Assembly (NCBI GenBank): GCA_040388575.1
Contig: JAZKBO010000001.1
Location: forward strand, 6,549 to 70,548
Direction of reading: 5' to 3'
Length of the DNA: 64,000 nucleotides
Source: Patescibacteria group bacterium
GTDB taxonomy: Bacteria > Patescibacteriota > Minisyncoccia > Phycocordibacterales > UBA9973
Shown here: positions 6,455-55,976 of the stretch, one piece after another
Layout: each line of letters starts with the position of its first letter
Numbering within the stretch: the stretch's first letter is position 1
Notes under the pieces: model-generated
Told to the model about the DNA's origin: nothing
The model's input: only the letters and a program-made list of their open reading frames with translations
The model's database searches: none
Position numbers and translations under genes: made by a program

Positions 6455-6482
6455 TTGCAAAAAATCTAAAATGATGTATAAT
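6455..6482 (+). promoter_or_regulatory. Sigma-70-like promoter (TTGCAA, 16-nt spacer, TGnTATAAT) at the AT-rich edge of high-GC island 1
   Basis: Motifs read directly: ttgcaa at 6455-6460, tgtataat at 6475-6482. Confidence 0.4.
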
Positions 6483-6537: not shown

Positions 6538-6975
6538 ATGGGTCGCGAGGATACGGTACGAACCCTACTGAACTCAATCCCGATTTTCACAAGTCGCGAC
6601 TGGGGCTCCGTGGAGAGAAATGGTAGGGCGGTAGAGCTGGCCAAATCCATTCGGGCAGCCGTCGATCAACGGGACGACGCCAAGATGAAAGAGTTGGCTA
6701 AGGAAATCGACTACTTCATGTCGCCAAGCTTTGTTCTCTTCAAGAGGATGGAGCGTCTCATCGAGAGACAGGGACAGAGGGTTTGGCGCGCCGAACAAGA
6801 CAACGCCGCTTGGCAGAGTCTGATCAGACGCACGTCGATCGTTACACGACGTCGTGATACTGCGGAGCTCGCAGAAATTGCGCCGCGCATCATTGCGTTT
6901 CTCAAGCAGAGGAACGAGCATGTCCTGGCTGGAAGCCTCGAAGAGGCCCTGGCTACATGCAAGGCTCGAAGATAG
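6538..6975 (+). CDS. Hypothetical protein, first gene of high-GC island 1
   Basis: 145-aa ORF. Coding-like composition at about 58% GC against an AT-rich backbone. Arg-rich, no recognised domain. Confidence 0.5.
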   Translation: MGREDTVRTLLNSIPIFTSRDWGSVERNGRAVELAKSIRAAVDQRDDAKMKELAKEIDYFMSPSFVLFKRMERLIERQGQRVWRAEQDNAAWQSLIRRTSIVTRRRDTAELAEIAPRIIAFLKQRNEHVLAGSLEEALATCKARR

Positions 6976-7001
6976 TTCACCCCTAGTAAGGACTAAAAGA
7001 G

Positions 7002-7490
7002 ATGTCGAAGCTGTATTTTACTCGCTCCGGCGCAGATAGAATAATGCGTCAGAAGCAGGCTTTATTTGACAAACTTAGGTCAATTCAAGGCCAGAAAGGA
7101 GAAGCCGCAGAGGTTGGAGGCAACCAGTGGCATGATAATTTCTCCTTCGAGCAACTGTCGCGTGACGAACAGATGGTTAACGCACAAATCACTGAAATCA
7201 ATCGAAAGATTGCCGACATGGTTGTGATTGACCAGCCGCCAGACGACACGAGCAAGCTTCGCATTGGACACATTGCGTTGCTTGATGTTAATGGAGAAAT
7301 CAAAACATATTTGGTGGGGGGCTTTGAAGACTCGGAGAGCTCCACTAAACCGCAGGTCATCAGCTATCTGGCTCCGCTCATCCGCCAATTCATCGGAAAA
7401 GAGCGGGGCTACACGACTTCAATCAAAATCGATGAGAAGACGGTTGAAGTCACGCTCGAGGAGATACAACTACAGAAGGAGGGGAAGTAG
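7002..7490 (+). CDS. GreA/GreB-family transcript-cleavage-factor homologue
   Basis: N-terminal coiled coil and C-terminal FKBP-like domain align with GreA ('NAQITEINRKIADMVVID', 'LRIGHIALLDVNGEIKTYLVGG...ISYLAPLIRQFIGKERGYTTSIKI'). Confidence 0.7.
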   Translation: MSKLYFTRSGADRIMRQKQALFDKLRSIQGQKGEAAEVGGNQWHDNFSFEQLSRDEQMVNAQITEINRKIADMVVIDQPPDDTSKLRIGHIALLDVNGEIKTYLVGGFEDSESSTKPQVISYLAPLIRQFIGKERGYTTSIKIDEKTVEVTLEEIQLQKEGK

Positions 7491-7492
7491 TC

Positions 7493-8047
7493 ATGATCGT
7501 AGCAGTAGAAGGGATTGACTGCGCCGGGAAAGGTGAAGCTTGCCCTAGACTGGCCAGAGCTCTTAATGCAATCTTGTTCAAGACTCCCCCTGAAAGCATG
7601 AGAGGGGAGCAGGATAAGGTCAACGCTACTGCCACGGATGAGGAGCATTATAGTTACTTTACTCGAGTCGTGCAAACGGCATCGAGGGAGTTAGCTGTTC
7701 TGGCTACGAACCGCAACGTGGTAGTAGATCGATATTGGATGACCACAGTGGTTTACCACCGGGTCATGGGAATTCCAGCCAAACTGGCGGATATGGGCAA
7801 CATTATCATTCCGGATATAACCGTCTACCTAACGGTGTCTCCGCAAGTCCAAGCAAAACGAATGGATGGTAGGGGCATGTCTCCGGGCGACAAGCGCATG
7901 GACGGCAGGCAACACCTCATTCGACAAATCTACGACGAAGTCCTGTCCACGGTGGACAAGGTGATTCGCGTAGATACCAGCAATCTTACCCCGGATCAGG
8001 TCATCGACCTGATTCTCGCGGGAATGCCCTCTGTCGACAGCGGCTGA
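7493..8047 (+). CDS. Thymidylate-kinase-like (dNMP kinase fold) protein with an atypical P-loop
   Basis: 'IVAVEGIDCAGKGEA' resembles the TMPK 'IEGxDGAGKST' motif but lacks the Ser/Thr. 'DRYWMTTVVYH' and 'PDITVYLTVSPQVQAKRMDGRG' match TMPK DRx and lid regions. Confidence 0.65.
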   Translation: MIVAVEGIDCAGKGEACPRLARALNAILFKTPPESMRGEQDKVNATATDEEHYSYFTRVVQTASRELAVLATNRNVVVDRYWMTTVVYHRVMGIPAKLADMGNIIIPDITVYLTVSPQVQAKRMDGRGMSPGDKRMDGRQHLIRQIYDEVLSTVDKVIRVDTSNLTPDQVIDLILAGMPSVDSG

Positions 8048-8114
8048 GGGCATTTACTTTTGCACTTACAATAATGTTATAATGGTTTTAATTATTTAAA
8101 TACAATAAATATCT

Positions 8115-8672
8115 ATGAATAACCGAGAGATAGAGGTAAGATTTTTAGAAATTGATAAACAACTTTTAATTAAAAAATTAAGCGATCTTGGGGCGCAAGA
8201 TCATGGAGAAGATTTATTGGAGGAAATTATTTTTTATGACAAGGATCATAAATGGCCAGACGAGGGTAAATTTGTAAGAATAAGAAAGGATAGTAAGGGT
8301 GTATTACTGTCCTACAAGCACCATCAGTCTGAAAATATTAATGGGGTAGAAGAAATTGAATTTGGTATTACAGACAGTGAACAAGCAAAAGTTTTTTTAG
8401 AAAAATTAGGACTAATAGTTTTTAGATACCAACAAAAAAAACGGCATTCGTTCACGTTAAACGGAGTAACTGTGGACATTGATACGTGGCCCAAAATCCC
8501 AACATATCTAGAGCTTGAGGGATCTTCTGAATTAGAACTAAAAGAAGCAGCGGGAAAGCTTCAATTGGATTGGCAGGAGGTAGTTTTTAAAAGCGCGAGA
8601 ACTATTATTGAAGAACAATACCATATACCAGTTAGCTCGATGAAGTGGTTTACTTTTGATAAATTTGAATAA
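8115..8672 (+). CDS. CYTH-domain protein (triphosphate tunnel metalloenzyme; class IV adenylyl cyclase / triphosphatase family)
   Basis: N-terminal 'EIEVRF' (ExExK) motif and C-terminal 'YLELEGSSELE' acidic motif, with matching size. Confidence 0.8.
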   Translation: MNNREIEVRFLEIDKQLLIKKLSDLGAQDHGEDLLEEIIFYDKDHKWPDEGKFVRIRKDSKGVLLSYKHHQSENINGVEEIEFGITDSEQAKVFLEKLGLIVFRYQQKKRHSFTLNGVTVDIDTWPKIPTYLELEGSSELELKEAAGKLQLDWQEVVFKSARTIIEEQYHIPVSSMKWFTFDKFE

Positions 8673-8679
8673 ATAAAAT

Positions 8680-10008
8680 ATGTTTAAATCAGGAAAAGAG
8701 TCTGGAGACTATCTAAGACAAATTGGAAACAGCGTCCCAGAAAAAATTGGCGTTATTGAAAAATCTTTAAATGACAGTAGTTTACCAAAAACTGCAGACG
8801 GAAAAATTAGAATTATTGAACTTGGTATTGGTGGGGGTGAGTCACTTAAGAGACTTAAAAAAAATTCATCTAGTGGTGTAGAATTGATTGCGGTAGATAT
8901 TATTCCAAAGCTAGTAGCTTCGATAAAAAAAGAAACTGGGGTTGATGCGGTAGCTGCAGATGCAGGCACATTGCCTTTTGCCGATATGTCAATTAGCGCC
9001 ATTAATGCATCTGCTATTTTTCATGAAATTAGTTCATACGGCATTGGTAGTAATTTAAAAGATGGGGGTAATTTATATGGAAAGGATGCCATAATCAGAA
9101 CACTTGGAGAATTTAATAGAGTATTACTACCTGAAGGAAAAATTGCTTATAGGGATGTTCTGGCGCCGTCAGAAAATTTAATGGGTGGAAAAAAAGTTAA
9201 CTACTCTCATAAATCGTGGAGGTTATATGCAAATTGGTTTTTAAGAGATTTTGTGAATCCGAGCTCTCGCTTTTACAAAAACATCAACCCAACTATAGAT
9301 GAGGCAGAGGATGGATTCGCTTTAACTGCTCCAGTAGGATTTCAGAGAGATTTTCAACGGCACTATATAATGCTCAGAGACTACCTAAGAAATGTAAAAC
9401 AAAAAGAGTTTGGTTTGACTATGGTCCGTTCGGATTGGTTAGATGAAAAACAAGGACTAAAATCCGTAACATTTTCTTTAGATGAGCGTTTGGGGTCTAT
9501 AATTGATTTGTCAGGTTTTGAAGTACATGATTCCATGGGGGAAAAAATTTATCGTGGTAATTCTGATCAATTTGATAAAATTTATGACGACCTAATGGAA
9601 TATTATTTCACTCAATTAAATAGTGGTTCTGTTGAAGGGAAGATTTTTGCTGAAATCATAAATACATGGAAAGAAAGAGAGGGTTTAGAGAACTATATAT
9701 ATGGAAACATTATTGACATATTGGATTTATCTTATGAGGCAACTAAAAGTAGTAATAGTGAGTGGGTACTTTTTCCTGAATCTACTTCAGATATAGAAAC
9801 CCCATTAAGATTTTATTACAATCGTTATTTAAAGGGTGTTGTAGACTACCCGGAACAGGACGGAAAGCAAATAATATCTTTTAAAAAAATGAAAAGAGAT
9901 CAAGCATTGGATTCACTTAATAAGCTTATGGAATCTCCTTGGTGTATTAAAAATTTAGGTGTTAAAGAAATGGAAAAACTGAGAGTTAAGATAGAACAAT
10001 TAAAATAG
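8680..10008 (+). CDS. Class I SAM-dependent methyltransferase with a ~240-aa C-terminal extension of unknown function
   Basis: Motif I 'IIELGIGGGESL', motif II 'LIAVDII', motif IV-like 'LPFADMSISAINASAIFHEI'. Confidence 0.65.
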   Translation: MFKSGKESGDYLRQIGNSVPEKIGVIEKSLNDSSLPKTADGKIRIIELGIGGGESLKRLKKNSSSGVELIAVDIIPKLVASIKKETGVDAVAADAGTLPFADMSISAINASAIFHEISSYGIGSNLKDGGNLYGKDAIIRTLGEFNRVLLPEGKIAYRDVLAPSENLMGGKKVNYSHKSWRLYANWFLRDFVNPSSRFYKNINPTIDEAEDGFALTAPVGFQRDFQRHYIMLRDYLRNVKQKEFGLTMVRSDWLDEKQGLKSVTFSLDERLGSIIDLSGFEVHDSMGEKIYRGNSDQFDKIYDDLMEYYFTQLNSGSVEGKIFAEIINTWKEREGLENYIYGNIIDILDLSYEATKSSNSEWVLFPESTSDIETPLRFYYNRYLKGVVDYPEQDGKQIISFKKMKRDQALDSLNKLMESPWCIKNLGVKEMEKLRVKIEQLK

Positions 10009-10031
10009 CTACTAAATTTAAATATATAAGA

Positions 10032-10433
10032 ATGAAAAAAACATTAAAAGCTGGGGCTATTATTTTAAGTAGCACAGATAAGAATAAAGTAGCTATCTTG
10101 TATAGCAGTAGGCAAAATGATTACTCTTTTCCAAAAGGACATGTAGAATCTGGCGAAAATGTAATGCAGGCAATGTTAAGGGAGGTAAAGGAAGAAACGG
10201 GATTAGATATAAAAATAATTCAAACTTTACCTGATATTAACTATGCCACCCCGAGTGGAGAAGCTGTTTTAATAAAAATGTTTTTAGTTAAGTCAGAGAA
10301 TGATTCCAAACTCAAACCGGAATTTGATAAAGATAAAATTGAGTGGGTACTTATTGAAGCAGTTACAGAAAAGCTCAGCTATAATAACTTAAAGGAATAT
10401 TTTAACTCGGTAAAACACTTTTTAAATAAATAG
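10032..10433 (+). CDS. NUDIX hydrolase
   Basis: Canonical Nudix box 'GHVESGENVMQAMLREVKEETGL'. Confidence 0.85.
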   Translation: MKKTLKAGAIILSSTDKNKVAILYSSRQNDYSFPKGHVESGENVMQAMLREVKEETGLDIKIIQTLPDINYATPSGEAVLIKMFLVKSENDSKLKPEFDKDKIEWVLIEAVTEKLSYNNLKEYFNSVKHFLNK

Positions 10434-55903: not shown

Positions 55904-55976
55904 GCGCCCGTAGCTCAGTCGGTAGAGCAGATCCCTTTTAAGGATAAGGTCGTTGGTTCGATCCCAACCGGGCGCA
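55904..55976 (+). tRNA. tRNA-Lys (anticodon TTT)
   Basis: Hand-folded cloverleaf. Acceptor GCGCCCG/CGGGCGC, D-arm GCTC-AGTCGGTA-GAGC, anticodon loop CTTTTAA, T-arm GTTGG-TTCGATC-CCAAC, discriminator A. No encoded CCA. Confidence 0.9.

What the first reader, a model, noticed from the sequence alone, without database searches (positions are those of the whole stretch)
8115..10433. CYTH triphosphatase, SAM methyltransferase with an unknown 240-aa extension, and a NUDIX hydrolase as a possible RNA 5'-end capping/decapping-like module
Three co-oriented, tightly spaced genes combine a triphosphate-tunnel metalloenzyme (CYTH), a class I SAM methyltransferase carrying a large uncharacterised C-terminal domain, and a NUDIX hydrolase. 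CYTH is the fold of RNA 5'-triphosphatases such as Cet1. NUDIX is the fold of decapping enzymes and RppH. Together these are the enzymatic logic of building and removing a methylated 5' cap or other nucleotide-derived end modification. The methyltransferase C-terminal extension could hold the missing transferase activity. Alternatively the trio could be a cyclic or oligonucleotide signalling cassette. Either reading would be a non-standard system.
Basis: inference. Interest (0 to 1): 0.55.

Follow-up and report, generated by a model that had tools for sequence, protein, structure and literature searches.

The report
Nucleotide-methylating module linked to RNA polymerase
The three genes are real, but the conserved unit is an uncharacterised methyltransferase with a novel-fold domain that always travels with a nucleotide-triphosphate hydrolase, and often with a nucleotide kinase and an RNA-polymerase-channel factor; this looks like a pathway for making a methylated nucleotide, not an RNA-capping machine.

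Summary
Observation confirmed: CYTH (8115-8672), a class I SAM methyltransferase with a ~265-aa extra region (8680-10008) and NUDIX (10032-10433) are co-oriented, 7 and 23 nt apart, in a Patescibacteria genome.

The capping reading is only partly supported. The extra region is confidently folded (pLDDT 92.5), holds most of the family's invariant residues, and matches no solved or viral structure, so it is not a guanylyltransferase. By published motif rules the CYTH is a hydrolase, not a cyclase. A directly adjacent NUDIX occurs in 0 of 80 related species loci.

The conserved unit is different. Methyltransferase and CYTH are adjacent in 68 of 80 loci, from CPR bacteria to actinomycetes at ~26% identity. 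In CPR, a Tmk-like kinase (7493-8047) and a Gre-like factor with a remodelled W-H-D-N tip (7002-7490) join them in at least five gene orders. Distant relatives are fused to a P-loop kinase or to a GreA C-terminal domain. In other lineages MazG or NUDIX takes the place of CYTH.

Best explanation (inferred): a rare, horizontally mobile pathway that methylates a nucleotide, with its own kinase and triphosphate hydrolase, coupled in CPR to the RNA polymerase secondary channel. The nearest analogues are viperin-kinase systems and phage T4 nucleotide-pool modification. The substrate is unknown.

The parts
7002..7490 (+). Gre-like RNA polymerase secondary-channel factor (162 aa) with a remodelled coiled-coil tip, invariant W43-H44-D45-N46
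   Evidence: It matches GreA weakly over its full length (TIGR01462 38 bits, far below the 139-bit cut-off; PF01272 20.9 bits). It aligns to E. coli GreA 1GRJ over residues 7-150. W-H-D-N is invariant in 21 of 21 module-linked homologs and also in the Gre-like gene next to the distant methyltransferase-kinase fusion. The family has only 63 clusters and sits largely on the same contigs as the methyltransferase. It is linked to the methyltransferase in 17 of 24 low-GC loci in several gene orders. A GreA C-terminal domain is fused to the methyltransferase in P0203.
7493..8047 (+). Tmk-like NMP-kinase-fold protein (184 aa), a dedicated partner and not a canonical dTMP kinase
   Evidence: PF02223 scores 51.6 bits, but the TIGR00041 equivalog scores 50.7, below its 83.25 cut-off. 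Its best PADLOC hits are PDC-M51B (8.6e-24) and VakA (1.1e-10). Invariant TPP, HY, DRYW and RGMSxGDxRM motifs replace Tmk's TREPGGT. The family has only 36 clusters, on the same contigs as the methyltransferase. The start codon lies 2 nt after the Gre-like stop codon. P-loop kinases are fused to the methyltransferase in P0191, P0210, P0237 and P0243.
8048..8114 (+). 67-nt spacer where GC3 drops from about 0.58 to about 0.26; carries an extended -10-like TGTTATAAT (possible internal promoter)
   Evidence: Sequence read. The consensus scan lists no full -35/-10 site here, so this is a pattern match only, read directly from the sequence.
8115..8672 (+). CYTH / triphosphate tunnel metalloenzyme (185 aa), predicted triphosphate hydrolase
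   Evidence: PF01928 E=1.1e-12. Its closest solved relatives are 1YEM, SaTTM 7NS8 and 2DC4. The tunnel residues E5, E7, R55, R57, K68, E80, K108, R110, D123, E133, E135 and R162 are each conserved in at least 75 of 78 methyltransferase-linked homologs. It has no HF motif, both arginines of xRxR and both glutamates of ExE, which by the criteria of PMC8233210 marks a hydrolase and not a class IV cyclase.
8680..9207 (+). Methyltransferase, N-terminal class I SAM-binding Rossmann part (residues 1 to about 176)
   Evidence: PF08241 and PF13649 are above their cut-offs. Motif I E47-L-G-x-G51-G-G53 is invariant, as are S111, H115-E116, Y120 and Y157-R-D159. The AF2 model has pLDDT 92.4 and pTM 0.90. 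Foldseek matches only small-molecule class I methyltransferases such as PsmD, RebM, PfPMT and GNMT.
9208..10008 (+). Methyltransferase, extra region of about 265 aa with a novel fold (residues 177-442), the probable substrate-binding or catalytic cap
   Evidence: It holds the invariant residues R223, Q226-R227-H228, R233-D234, W253, G259, K261, D299, W330, R333-E334, E337, Y339, R377, Y379-Y380 and K396. The model of the isolated region has pLDDT 92.5. No structural match was found in the PDB (best E=0.026, TM<=0.17) or BFVD, and no sequence match in the PDB. The region is found in only 182 clusters among 1.84 billion representatives, always attached to a methyltransferase domain in the 18 sequences tested.
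10032..10433 (+). NUDIX hydrolase (133 aa): a facultative, lineage-specific addition to the module
   Evidence: PF00293 E=3.7e-15 and an intact NUDIX box (read). It starts 23 nt after the methyltransferase and shares its low GC3 (0.28). It is not adjacent in any of 80 related loci. However, a likely ortholog (37.5% identity over the full length, E=9e-26) lies near the module in L093, and a NUDIX replaces CYTH in L095/L096.

Best explanation
Window positions 7002-10433 encode a rare, horizontally mobile module for modifying a nucleotide. Its core is a SAM-dependent methyltransferase ('MT-X') whose roughly 265-aa novel-fold region forms the substrate site. MT-X is always paired with an enzyme that hydrolyses nucleoside or organic triphosphates; here that is a hydrolase-type CYTH, with a NUDIX as an extra. 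Proposed mechanism: the phosphohydrolase and the dedicated Tmk-like kinase move a nucleotide between its mono-, di- and triphosphate forms; MT-X methylates it at one of those stages; the resulting methylated nucleotide acts at RNA polymerase, or is kept away from it, through the Gre-like factor, whose remodelled W-H-D-N tip reaches the active site via the secondary channel. Shown here: the domain identities; the conservation of active-site residues in CYTH and MT-X; the gene linkage across phyla; the MT-X-kinase and MT-X-GreA-C fusions; and the replacement of CYTH by MazG or NUDIX. Inferred: that the substrate is a nucleotide, that methyl transfer is the chemistry, the order of the steps, and the connection to RNA polymerase.
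For: (1) Linkage. CYTH is adjacent to MT-X on the same strand in 68 of 80 species-level loci, covering CPR lineages and actinomycetes whose MT-X is only 25-28% identical to the window's. The Gre-like gene is present in 17 of 24 low-GC loci and the kinase in 16 of 24, in at least five different gene orders. That pattern indicates selection for linkage, not inherited synteny. (2) Rosetta-stone fusions. MT-X is fused to a P-loop kinase in P0191, P0210, P0237 and P0243, and to a GreA_GreB C-terminal domain in P0203. The kinase fusion is followed 24 nt later by a W-H-D-N Gre-like gene. (3) Replacement by unrelated enzymes in the hydrolase slot. A MazG-like gene lies 12 nt after the MT-X-GreC fusion, and a NUDIX overlaps a short MT-X by 8 nt and is followed by a Tmk-like kinase. 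What CYTH, MazG and NUDIX share is hydrolysis of NTP-type substrates (established knowledge of these families). (4) The partners are dedicated families, not housekeeping genes. The kinase family has 36 clusters and the Gre-like family 63, in a database of 5.8 billion, on the same contigs as MT-X. Both fall far below the NCBIfam equivalog cut-offs for Tmk and GreA. (5) The enzymes look active. CYTH keeps its full tunnel residue set and a hydrolase-type signature. MT-X keeps its SAM motif I and has 19 invariant polar or aromatic residues in the extra region, many of them Arg, Lys, His or Tyr, as expected for a phosphate and base pocket. (6) MT-X is acidic overall (median pI 5.5), which fits a small-molecule substrate better than a polymer. 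(7) Precedent. Viperins, SAM-using enzymes that make NTP analogues, are linked or fused to CMPK2/Tmk-superfamily kinases, and in 4 cases to a 'triphosphatase or cyclase' domain. The window's kinase hits defence-candidate kinase models in PADLOC. In one lineage the SAM-cycle genes AdoHcyase and MetK directly follow MT-X.
Against: There is no direct evidence for the substrate or for methyl transfer, and no structural neighbour to guide either. TTM-type CYTH enzymes typically remove the gamma-phosphate, whereas MazG and NUDIX cut between alpha and beta, so the three 'replacements' are not chemically identical. The actinomycete loci (56 of 80) have neither kinase nor Gre-like gene, so the RNA polymerase link cannot be essential to the core pair. 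The window's kinase subgroup lacks the Ser/Thr after the P-loop lysine (GIDCAGKGE) and may be impaired or atypical. The window's Gre-like protein scores below Pfam's cut-off for the C-terminal domain (20.9 against 26.9 bits), and RNA polymerase binding is assumed from homology only. CYTH, MT-X and the Gre-like protein have no PADLOC hit. MT-X is absent from 50,697 phage records.
Confidence: 0.45

Rival explanations
1. RNA 5'-end capping/decapping-like module. CYTH removes the gamma-phosphate of 5'-ppp RNA, the methyltransferase with its extension transfers and methylates a cap nucleotide, and NUDIX removes the cap.
For: The three domain families are those used in eukaryotic and viral capping and decapping (yeast Dcp2 NUDIX domains are among the better PDB sequence matches of the NUDIX at E~1e-9). 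The link to an RNA polymerase factor would fit a co-transcriptional process. Alphavirus nsP1 shows that one methyltransferase-like protein can both methylate and transfer (own knowledge, not tested here).
Against: The extra region matches no guanylyl- or nucleotidyltransferase fold, or any other fold. The CYTH is of the small CyaB/ThTPase/SaTTM type. The top structural matches of the Rossmann part are small-molecule methyltransferases, not cap methyltransferases. An adjacent NUDIX occurs in 0 of 80 loci. A dedicated NMP kinase has no role in capping. MT-X is acidic. Gre factors bind the secondary channel, far from where the RNA 5' end emerges (established knowledge).
Confidence: 0.06
2. MT-X methylates a macromolecule at RNA polymerase: a polymerase subunit, the Gre-like factor itself, or the RNA 3' end in backtracked complexes. 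It is recruited by the Gre-like C-terminal domain, and the kinase and triphosphatase act as regulators or energy-sensing accessories.
For: The MT-X-GreA-C fusion (P0203) replaces the first coiled-coil helix and tip with MT-X, which would tether the enzyme to the rim of the secondary channel. Some fused kinase domains have degenerate P-loops (P0219, P0212: GRIATRK, GRLATKK), as expected of regulatory pseudo-kinases.
Against: The core MT-X-CYTH pair exists without any Gre-like gene in 56 actinomycete loci. This model does not explain why three unrelated NTP hydrolases interchange. MT-X is acidic.
Confidence: 0.15
3. The MT-X-CYTH pair acts on a non-nucleotide organic or inorganic triphosphate, for example a thiamine-triphosphate-like cofactor or polyphosphate, and the links to the Gre-like factor and kinase are regulatory or incidental.
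For: CYTH enzymes act on PPPi, thiamine triphosphate and polyphosphate. The window's subgroup has an aromatic residue (F53) at the ThTPase-defining W/Y position of W/YxRxR. The archaeal SaTTM operon links a TTM with SAM metabolism.
Against: MazG and NUDIX substitute for CYTH, and the partner kinases have the NMP-kinase fold. Both point to nucleotides. The fusions to kinase and GreA-C argue against incidental linkage.
Confidence: 0.12
4. Cyclic-nucleotide signalling cassette: CYTH works as a class IV adenylyl cyclase, and the methyltransferase and NUDIX modify or degrade the signal.
For: The NCBIfam class IV cyclase model TIGR00318 is the best hit (52.2 bits), though below its 57.95 cut-off.
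Against: All three cyclase signatures defined in PMC8233210 are absent. There is no HFxxxxExExK; the first Arg of xRxR is kept (R55); and the second Glu of ExE is kept (E135) where cyclases have Ala. SaTTM, a close solved relative, makes no cyclic nucleotides.
Confidence: 0.03
5. There is no functional unit: the Gre-like and kinase genes are the organism's housekeeping greA and tmk, kept next to an unrelated methyltransferase-CYTH pair by inherited synteny in CPR genomes.
For: The window's 64 kb holds no second GreA or Tmk. CPR genomes are small, and some bacteria have GreA as their only secondary-channel factor. GC3 differs sharply between the two gene pairs.
Against: At least five different gene orders keep the four genes together. 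There are fusions of MT-X to both partner types. Both partner families are tiny and share their distribution with MT-X. They have divergent signature motifs and sub-threshold equivalog scores.
Confidence: 0.07

Closest known systems
Viperin (pVip/RSAD2) with CMPK2-family kinase: antiviral NTP-analogue synthesis
   Same: A SAM-using enzyme that acts on nucleotides, linked by neighbourhood and by fusion to an NMP kinase of the Tmk/CMPK2 superfamily and sometimes to a triphosphatase or cyclase domain. Sporadic, transfer-prone distribution. The window's kinase hits PADLOC kinase models VakA and PDC-M51B.
   Different: MT-X is a class I Rossmann methyltransferase, not a radical-SAM enzyme. The phosphohydrolase partner is nearly obligatory here. 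A Gre-like RNA polymerase factor is part of the CPR version. No defence phenotype is known, and MT-X, CYTH and the Gre-like protein are absent from PADLOC.
Phage T4-type nucleotide-pool modification (dCTPase gp56, dCMP hydroxymethylase gp42, dNMP kinase gp1, plus the RNA-polymerase-directed Alc)
   Same: The same logic of NTP (pyro)phosphatase, then an enzyme that modifies the monophosphate, then a dedicated NMP kinase, plus a factor acting on RNA polymerase. CYTH and MazG triphosphatases have been proposed for this role in jumbo phages. The T4 pathway itself is cited from own knowledge.
   Different: The module is cellular: MT-X has no match in 50,697 phage records. The methyl donor would be SAM, not folate. 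The modifying enzyme is unrelated to ThyA. The polymerase-directed partner is a Gre homolog.
Eukaryotic/viral mRNA capping apparatus and NUDIX decapping (Cet1, Ceg1, Abd1; Dcp2/RppH)
   Same: The CYTH, class I methyltransferase and NUDIX domain families co-occur.
   Different: There is no guanylyltransferase. The CYTH is not Cet1-like. NUDIX is not conserved. The kinase and Gre-like partners have no counterpart in capping.
Secondary-channel factors GreA/GreB, Gfh1/Rv3788, Rnk, and DksA with ppGpp
   Same: The Gre-like partner has the GreA two-domain layout. Gfh1/Rv3788 and DksA-ppGpp show that such factors can inhibit or re-programme RNA polymerase, in one case together with a nucleotide ligand. 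Rnk is named as a regulator of nucleoside diphosphate kinase.
   Different: The tip is remodelled to [D/N]-x-W-H-D-N with a 2-residue insertion, and in the window the D41-equivalent acidic residue is lost. It is encoded with nucleotide-metabolising enzymes, and its C-domain is fused to a methyltransferase in one lineage. As far as the library searches show, this has not been described.
SaTTM operon of Sulfolobus (TTM Saci_0718, SAM hydrolase Saci_0719, NMN adenylyltransferase Saci_0720)
   Same: A small hydrolase-type CYTH, among the closest solved relatives of the window's CYTH, sits in a conserved operon with a SAM-consuming enzyme and a nucleotide-handling enzyme.
   Different: The SAM enzyme there is a hydrolase of another fold. 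There is no methyltransferase, kinase or Gre-like gene.

Membership tests
mRNA capping apparatus (triphosphatase, guanylyltransferase, cap methyltransferase) | A guanylyltransferase: covalent nucleotidyltransferase fold with the KxDG lysine | tested here: not met
   The extra region of the methyltransferase matches no solved fold (Foldseek PDB best E=0.026, TM<=0.17; BFVD; profile against PDB sequences gives 0 hits). No other candidate gene lies in the locus.
mRNA capping apparatus (triphosphatase, guanylyltransferase, cap methyltransferase) | An RNA 5'-triphosphatase of the Cet1-like CYTH branch | tested here: inconclusive
   The CYTH fold is present, but the best matches are small CyaB/ThTPase/TTM-type proteins (TIGR00318; 1YEM, 7NS8, 2DC4). 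Activity on RNA ends cannot be decided from sequence.
mRNA capping apparatus (triphosphatase, guanylyltransferase, cap methyltransferase) | Conserved co-occurrence of the components (here CYTH, methyltransferase and NUDIX) | tested here: not met
   Methyltransferase plus CYTH: 68 of 80 loci. A directly adjacent same-strand NUDIX: 0 of 80; within 2.6 kb on either strand: 9 of 80.
Class IV adenylyl cyclase (CyaB, AC-IV) | HF motif four residues before ExExK; first Arg of xRxR replaced by a small residue; ExA instead of ExE on beta-8 (criteria of PMC8233210) | tested here: not met
   The N-terminus is MNNR-E5-I-E7, leaving no room for HF. R55 and R57 are both present, as are E133 and E135; these are conserved in at least 77 of 78 relatives. 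TIGR00318 scores 52.2, below its 57.95 cut-off.
Triphosphate tunnel metalloenzyme hydrolases (CYTH, PF01928) | ExExK metal and substrate motif, basic tunnel residues (RxR, K, KxR) and acidic ExE | tested here: met
   PF01928 scores 48.6 bits against a 23.2 cut-off. E5, E7, R55, R57, K68, K108, R110, E133 and E135 are conserved. One deviation: the window's subgroup has ExExR (R9) where others have K.
Class I SAM-dependent methyltransferases | Rossmann fold with the glycine-rich motif I and an acidic residue for SAM binding | tested here: met
   PF08241 scores 32.0 against 21.2, and PF13649 scores 27.8 against 27. E47-x-G49-x-G51-G-G53 is invariant. The model has pLDDT 92.4 and aligns to many class I methyltransferases at Foldseek probability 1.00. 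Catalysis itself is not testable here.
GreA/GreB transcript-cleavage factors | Two conserved acidic residues at the coiled-coil tip (E. coli D41 and E44) | tested here: not met
   In the alignment to 1GRJ the D41 position is G/N in the window and E44 corresponds to D45, with a 2-residue insertion. The tip motif is [D/N]-x-W-H-D-N. The functional importance of the tip residues is stated in PMC4598747.
GreA/GreB transcript-cleavage factors | GreA/GreB C-terminal RNA-polymerase-binding domain (PF01272) | tested here: inconclusive
   The window protein scores 20.9 bits, below the 26.9 cut-off. Family members pass it (L007 47.3 bits; L091 56.3 bits). TIGR01462 aligns over 6-155 of the protein.
Thymidylate kinase (Tmk, dTMP kinase) | Equivalog-level match and the canonical P-loop GxxGxGK[ST] | tested here: not met
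   TIGR00041 scores 50.7, below its 83.25 cut-off. The window's P-loop is GIDCAGKGE, although other subgroups have GSGKST. TPP replaces the TREPGGT region (the canonical motif is from own knowledge). No Tmk is among the PDB sequence hits at E<=1e-3. The Pfam domain-level match PF02223 is met (51.6 bits).
Viperin-kinase type nucleotide-analogue defence systems | A radical-SAM viperin enzyme | tested here: not met
   There is no radical-SAM domain in the locus. The SAM enzyme is a class I methyltransferase.
Viperin-kinase type nucleotide-analogue defence systems | Genetic linkage or fusion of the nucleotide-modifying enzyme with an NMP kinase | tested here: met
   A kinase lies within 2.6 kb in 16 of 24 low-GC loci. 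Fusions exist in P0191, P0210, P0237 and P0243. The precedent is described.
Viperin-kinase type nucleotide-analogue defence systems | Protection against phage | not testable with these tools
   This needs phage challenge of a host expressing the module. PADLOC recognises only the kinase (PDC-M51B, VakA) and the NUDIX (PDC-S07).
NUDIX hydrolases | NUDIX box GX5EX7REUXEEXGU | tested here: met
   PF00293 scores 56.5 bits. The box reads G-HVESG-E-NVMQAML-R-E-V-K-E-E-T-G-L in the translation.

The most novel reading that the evidence does not exclude
MT-X makes a methylated NTP analogue that targets transcription, for example a ribose-O-methyl or base-methyl NTP that blocks or marks RNA synthesis. 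This would be a non-radical-SAM counterpart of viperin. The kinase feeds the pathway. CYTH, MazG or NUDIX limits self-toxicity or switches the product off. The W-H-D-N Gre-like factor either protects the cell's own RNA polymerase, by excising or excluding the analogue through the secondary channel, or uses the analogue as a co-ligand in the way DksA uses ppGpp. The exchange of the module between Saccharibacteria and actinomycetes would then reflect a conflict or immunity function shared by epibiont and host.
Probability: 0.15. Interest if true: 0.88.

Novelty: new variant of a known kind. Interest (0 to 1): 0.62.

Why it matters
If the inference holds, this is a previously undescribed way for bacteria to make a modified nucleotide. 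It would use a SAM methyltransferase with a substrate domain of unknown fold, its own kinase and triphosphate hydrolase, and a genetic (and, through fusion, physical) tie to the RNA polymerase secondary channel. That would add a new class of secondary-channel factor, one encoded with the enzymes that probably make its ligand or its problem substrate. It would also add a new enzyme family for nucleotide chemistry, and possibly a viperin-like antiviral or regulatory nucleotide in the little-understood CPR bacteria and in actinomycetes. The hypotheses are directly testable because the actinomycete versions occur in cultivable Streptomyces, Nocardia and Saccharopolyspora. Even on the cautious reading, the work corrects the module's boundaries, removes the capping and cyclase interpretations, and defines three uncharacterised protein families with diagnostic motifs.

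Tried and rejected
- **Guanylyltransferase or other known fold in the extra region:** rejected. I ran two AF2 models, Foldseek against the PDB and BFVD, phmmer and a profile hmmsearch against PDB sequences. The weak phmmer hit of residues 243-307 to T7 gene 1.2 protein (E=0.13) is treated as chance.
- **Known defence system:** PADLOC recognises only the kinase and the NUDIX. PHROGs gives only generic kinase and NUDIX hits.
- **Phage or plasmid cargo:** no phage match and one Streptomyces plasmid.
- **Extra conserved genes in actinomycete loci:** clustering of neighbours, with shadow ORFs filtered by GC3, found only a divergent XRE/HTH_31 regulator (27 of 56 loci) and nothing else consistent. 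The 220-aa gene after CYTH in Saccharopolyspora is an orphan.
- **orf145 (6538-6975) as a module member:** no homolog in any related locus.
- **RNA elements:** Rfam and tRNA scans found only tRNA-Lys at 55904.
- **Literature:** searches for this gene combination, PDC-M51 and VakA returned nothing relevant.
- **P0044 context look-up:** failed.
- **Not possible with these tools:** Only flanks of related contigs are held, so I could not check whether genomes with the module also have canonical greA, tmk or thyA.

Full report
**1. What is there**

The window comes from a Patescibacteria (CPR) metagenome-assembled genome. The 442-aa protein is 100% identical to an NCBI protein from a 'Patescibacteria group bacterium', on a 130-kb contig.

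At the stated coordinates there are three co-oriented ORFs: 8115-8672 (185 aa), 8680-10008 (442 aa) and 10032-10433 (133 aa). They are separated by 7 and 23 nt. The last one overlaps a convergent EamA transporter gene by 12 nt.

Pfam confirms all three domain calls above its curated cut-offs:
- CYTH, E=1.1e-12.
- Methyltransf_11/25, at residues 45-155 of the 442-aa protein.
- NUDIX, E=3.7e-15, with an intact NUDIX box.

The remaining ~265 aa of the methyltransferase match nothing in Pfam, NCBIfam, PADLOC or PHROGs.

**2. The extra region of the methyltransferase**

I aligned 53 family members spanning 23-67% identity. The region after residue ~177 is the best-conserved part of the protein. Invariant residues are R223, Q226-R227-H228, R233-D234, W253, G259, K261, D299, W330, R333-E334, E337, Y339, R377, Y379-Y380 and K396.

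AlphaFold2 models are confident:
- Whole protein: pLDDT 92.4, pTM 0.90.
- Isolated region: pLDDT 92.5.

Structure and sequence comparisons gave the following:
- The whole model matches only generic small-molecule class I methyltransferases, through its Rossmann part (TM relative to the query <=0.34).
- The isolated region has no significant neighbour in the PDB (best E=0.026, TM<=0.17) or among viral models.
- Sequence profiles find nothing in the PDB.

So the region is neither a guanylyl/nucleotidyltransferase nor a TPR or dimerisation module. It is a novel-fold domain with the conservation pattern of an active site or ligand pocket.

An exhaustive profile search finds it in only 182 clusters among 1.84 billion representative proteins. 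In all 18 distant hits scanned with Pfam it is attached to a methyltransferase domain. I call the protein MT-X.

**3. Which neighbours are conserved**

Context look-ups and a scan of one genome per species (80 loci) were analysed with iterated profiles seeded from the window's own proteins.

| Feature near MT-X | All 80 loci | Low-GC (CPR) | Actinomycete |
|---|---|---|---|
| CYTH adjacent (<=200 bp, same strand) | 68/80 | 16/24 | 52/56 |
| Gre-like gene within 2.6 kb | 17/80 | 17/24 | 0/56 |
| P-loop kinase within 2.6 kb | 16/80 | 16/24 | 0/56 |
| Divergent XRE/HTH_31 regulator | 28/80 | 1/24 | 27/56 |
| NUDIX directly adjacent, same strand | 0/80 | 0/24 | 0/56 |
| NUDIX within 2.6 kb, either strand | 9/80 | 2/24 | 7/56 |

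The actinomycete genera include Nocardia, Streptomyces, Saccharopolyspora, Kitasatospora, Actinoplanes and Nocardiopsis. Their MT-X is only 25-28% identical to the window's.

In the window the two extra CPR genes are the ORFs just upstream, 7002-7490 (Gre-like) and 7493-8047 (kinase). Across lineages the four genes occur in at least five orders:
- Gre-kinase-CYTH-MT (the window).
- CYTH-MT-Gre-kinase.
- MT-CYTH-Gre-kinase.
- Gre-MT-kinase-CYTH.
- Gre-MT-CYTH-kinase.

Genes that are shuffled but stay together are the signature of functional linkage.

The window's closest relatives (66-67% identity) lack the NUDIX.

**4. Fusions and replacements**

A second tier of hits to the MT-X-specific profile turned out to be fusion proteins:
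- MT-X with a C-terminal P-loop kinase: P0191, P0210, P0237 and P0243. P0219 and P0212 carry degenerate P-loops.
- MT-X with a GreA/GreB C-terminal domain: P0203.

Their contexts are informative:
- The kinase fusion is followed 24 nt later by a Gre-like gene with the same tip motif.
- The Gre fusion is followed 12 nt later by a MazG-like NTP pyrophosphohydrolase, with no CYTH.
- A short 343-aa MT-X (30% identical to the window's, E=4e-51) is overlapped by 8 nt by an upstream NUDIX and followed by a Tmk-like kinase, again with no CYTH.

So the slot next to MT-X is filled by CYTH, MazG or NUDIX in different lineages. What these three families have in common is hydrolysis of nucleoside-triphosphate-type substrates.

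In the window it is most likely a facultative second hydrolase. A probable ortholog (37.5% identity over the full length, E=9e-26) lies close to the module in a Magasanikbacteria genome.

**5. The partners are specialised families**

*Kinase.* It matches Pfam Thymidylate_kin (51.6 bits) but fails the dTMP-kinase equivalog (50.7 against 83.25). It has invariant TPP, DRYW and RGMSxGDxRM motifs. It has only 36 clusters in 5.8 billion proteins, on the same contigs as MT-X. Its best PADLOC hits are kinase models of candidate defence systems (PDC-M51B 8.6e-24, VakA 1.1e-10). The window's subgroup has an unusual P-loop, GIDCAGKGE.

*Gre-like protein.* It aligns along the whole of E. coli GreA but scores 38 bits against a 139-bit cut-off. 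Its family has 63 clusters. At the coiled-coil tip, where Gre factors carry two functionally important acidic residues, it has an invariant W-H-D-N (21 of 21 sequences). There is a two-residue insertion, and in the window the first acidic residue is lost.

*CYTH.* It keeps the complete tunnel residue set in at least 75 of 78 sequences. By the motif rules of Vogt et al. (PMC8233210) it has no HF motif, both arginines of xRxR and both glutamates of ExE. That marks a triphosphate hydrolase, not a class IV adenylyl cyclase, which removes the cyclic-nucleotide alternative.

**6. Mechanism**

Shown: an apparently active triphosphate hydrolase, a SAM-binding methyltransferase with a conserved novel pocket domain, an NMP-kinase-fold protein and a Gre homolog are genetically coupled across phyla and are fused in some lineages.

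Inferred:
- The combination of an NTP hydrolase, a modifying enzyme and a dedicated NMP kinase is the logic of known nucleotide-pool modification pathways. Examples are phage T4 (own knowledge; CYTH and MazG were proposed for this role in jumbo phages) and viperin-CMPK2 systems. In the latter, a SAM-using enzyme that makes NTP analogues is linked or fused to Tmk-superfamily kinases and occasionally to a triphosphatase/cyclase domain.
- I therefore propose that MT-X methylates a nucleotide. The kinase and the hydrolase set its phosphorylation state, for supply, activation or detoxification.
- In CPR bacteria the product meets RNA polymerase through the Gre-like factor, whose Trp-His-containing tip would sit near the active site.

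Three further observations fit this. MT-X is acidic overall (median pI 5.5), which favours a small-molecule substrate. SAM-cycle genes directly follow MT-X in one lineage. The module is rare and patchy, and often lies next to toxin-antitoxin, integrase or conjugative-element genes, which suggests accessory status.

Weak points:
- The substrate is unknown.
- CYTH and MazG/NUDIX cut triphosphates at different positions.
- Actinomycetes lack the kinase and the Gre-like gene.
- Binding to RNA polymerase is assumed from homology.

I put 0.45 on this explanation as a whole.

**7. Comparison with known systems and novelty**

The module is not a capping apparatus: the guanylyltransferase test failed and the trio is not conserved. 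It is not a class IV cyclase cassette. It is not a canonical GreA or Tmk. It is not a recognised defence system.

It works most like viperin-kinase or T4-type nucleotide modification, but with a different SAM enzyme and, uniquely, a secondary-channel factor. Library searches found no description of this gene combination.

I rate it a new variant of a known kind, namely nucleotide-modifying pathways with a dedicated kinase and NTPase. It contains three uncharacterised protein families, one of which has a fold without a solved relative.

**8. Verdict**

The system is non-standard and centred on nucleotides, the C-terminal domain matters, and NUDIX is a legitimate though optional partner.
- The capping/decapping mechanism and the three-gene boundaries are not supported. 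The functional unit in the window spans 7002-10433.
- Interest is 0.62. The evidence for a new module is strong and the polymerase link is surprising, but the chemistry is still inferred.

Noticed in passing
window 6538-8047 versus 8115-10433; also L001, L005, L007, L010, L034: The Gre-like and kinase genes have much higher GC3 (0.57-0.58; orf145 0.63) than CYTH, the methyltransferase and NUDIX (0.24-0.28). The same split recurs in many lineages whatever the gene order (L005 0.64-0.70 vs 0.35-0.39; L007 0.77 vs 0.36; L034 0.82 vs 0.50), but not in L011, L012, L008 or L020. Two sub-cassettes with separate histories, or strong codon selection on one pair; unexplained.
   Followed up: partly
L007, L029, L033, L034, L054, L059, L072, L073 versus actinomycete loci: Saccharibacteria copies of the methyltransferase are up to about three times closer (mean 154-408 bits) to actinomycete copies than to other CPR copies (108-124 bits). 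This suggests gene transfer between Saccharibacteria and actinomycetes, their known hosts (the host relationship is from own knowledge). The Saccharibacteria versions keep the Gre-like and kinase genes; the actinomycete versions do not.
   Followed up: partly
L003 7354-10369: In one CPR lineage the methyltransferase is directly followed by S-adenosylhomocysteine hydrolase, an AAA_28 (NadR-like) kinase and SAM synthetase, a complete SAM-regeneration set in the same operon-like array. This hints at high methyl flux through the methyltransferase.
   Followed up: no
L006 1-5408 (Saccharopolyspora antimicrobica): The methyltransferase-CYTH pair and its XRE regulator lie next to RepSA, FtsK/SpoIIIE and WhiB genes, which are typical of an actinomycete integrative conjugative element. 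CPR loci often have HicA, Gp49/HTH, ParE/RelE/PhdYeFM, T4SS-pilin or integrase genes nearby.
   Followed up: no
L093 3725-4405 and 6187-7235: In a Magasanikbacteria genome the methyltransferase is truncated to 226 aa, ending right after the RExQRHY motif, while CYTH, the Gre-like gene and the kinase remain intact. A GNAT acetyltransferase plus NUDIX pair lies just downstream on the opposite strand, as also seen in L003.
   Followed up: partly
window 6538-6975: A 145-aa basic (pI 10.2), GC-rich orphan ORF sits directly upstream of the Gre-like gene on the same strand, preceded by a promoter-like TTGCAA-16-TATAAT at 6455-6482. It has no family hit and no homolog in any related locus. Separately, NCBI's annotation starts the Gre-like protein later (148 aa instead of 162).
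   Followed up: partly
window 1-64000: GC content is very patchy for a single small genome: 0.33-0.34 at 4-6 kb, 8-10 kb and 42-44 kb, against 0.52-0.54 at 14-18 kb. This suggests either mosaic origin or strong gene-specific composition.
   Followed up: no
window 9406-9600 (methyltransferase residues 243-307): There is a weak phmmer similarity (E=0.13) between this beta-hairpin segment and phage T7 gene 1.2 protein, the inhibitor of the host dGTP triphosphohydrolase (PDB 2MDP, 7U65). It is probably chance, but it is curious given the nucleotide theme.
   Followed up: no
window 18427-39258: A long, uninterrupted array of co-oriented plus-strand ORFs, including proteins of 1024, 681, 1340, 777 and 638 aa. 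Not examined.
   Followed up: no
L022, L023, L025 (Gottesmanbacteria-type loci): A subgroup of full-length methyltransferase homologs (about 31% identity) stands alone, with no CYTH, kinase or Gre-like gene within 2.6 kb. This is the one clear exception to the pairing rule.
   Followed up: no
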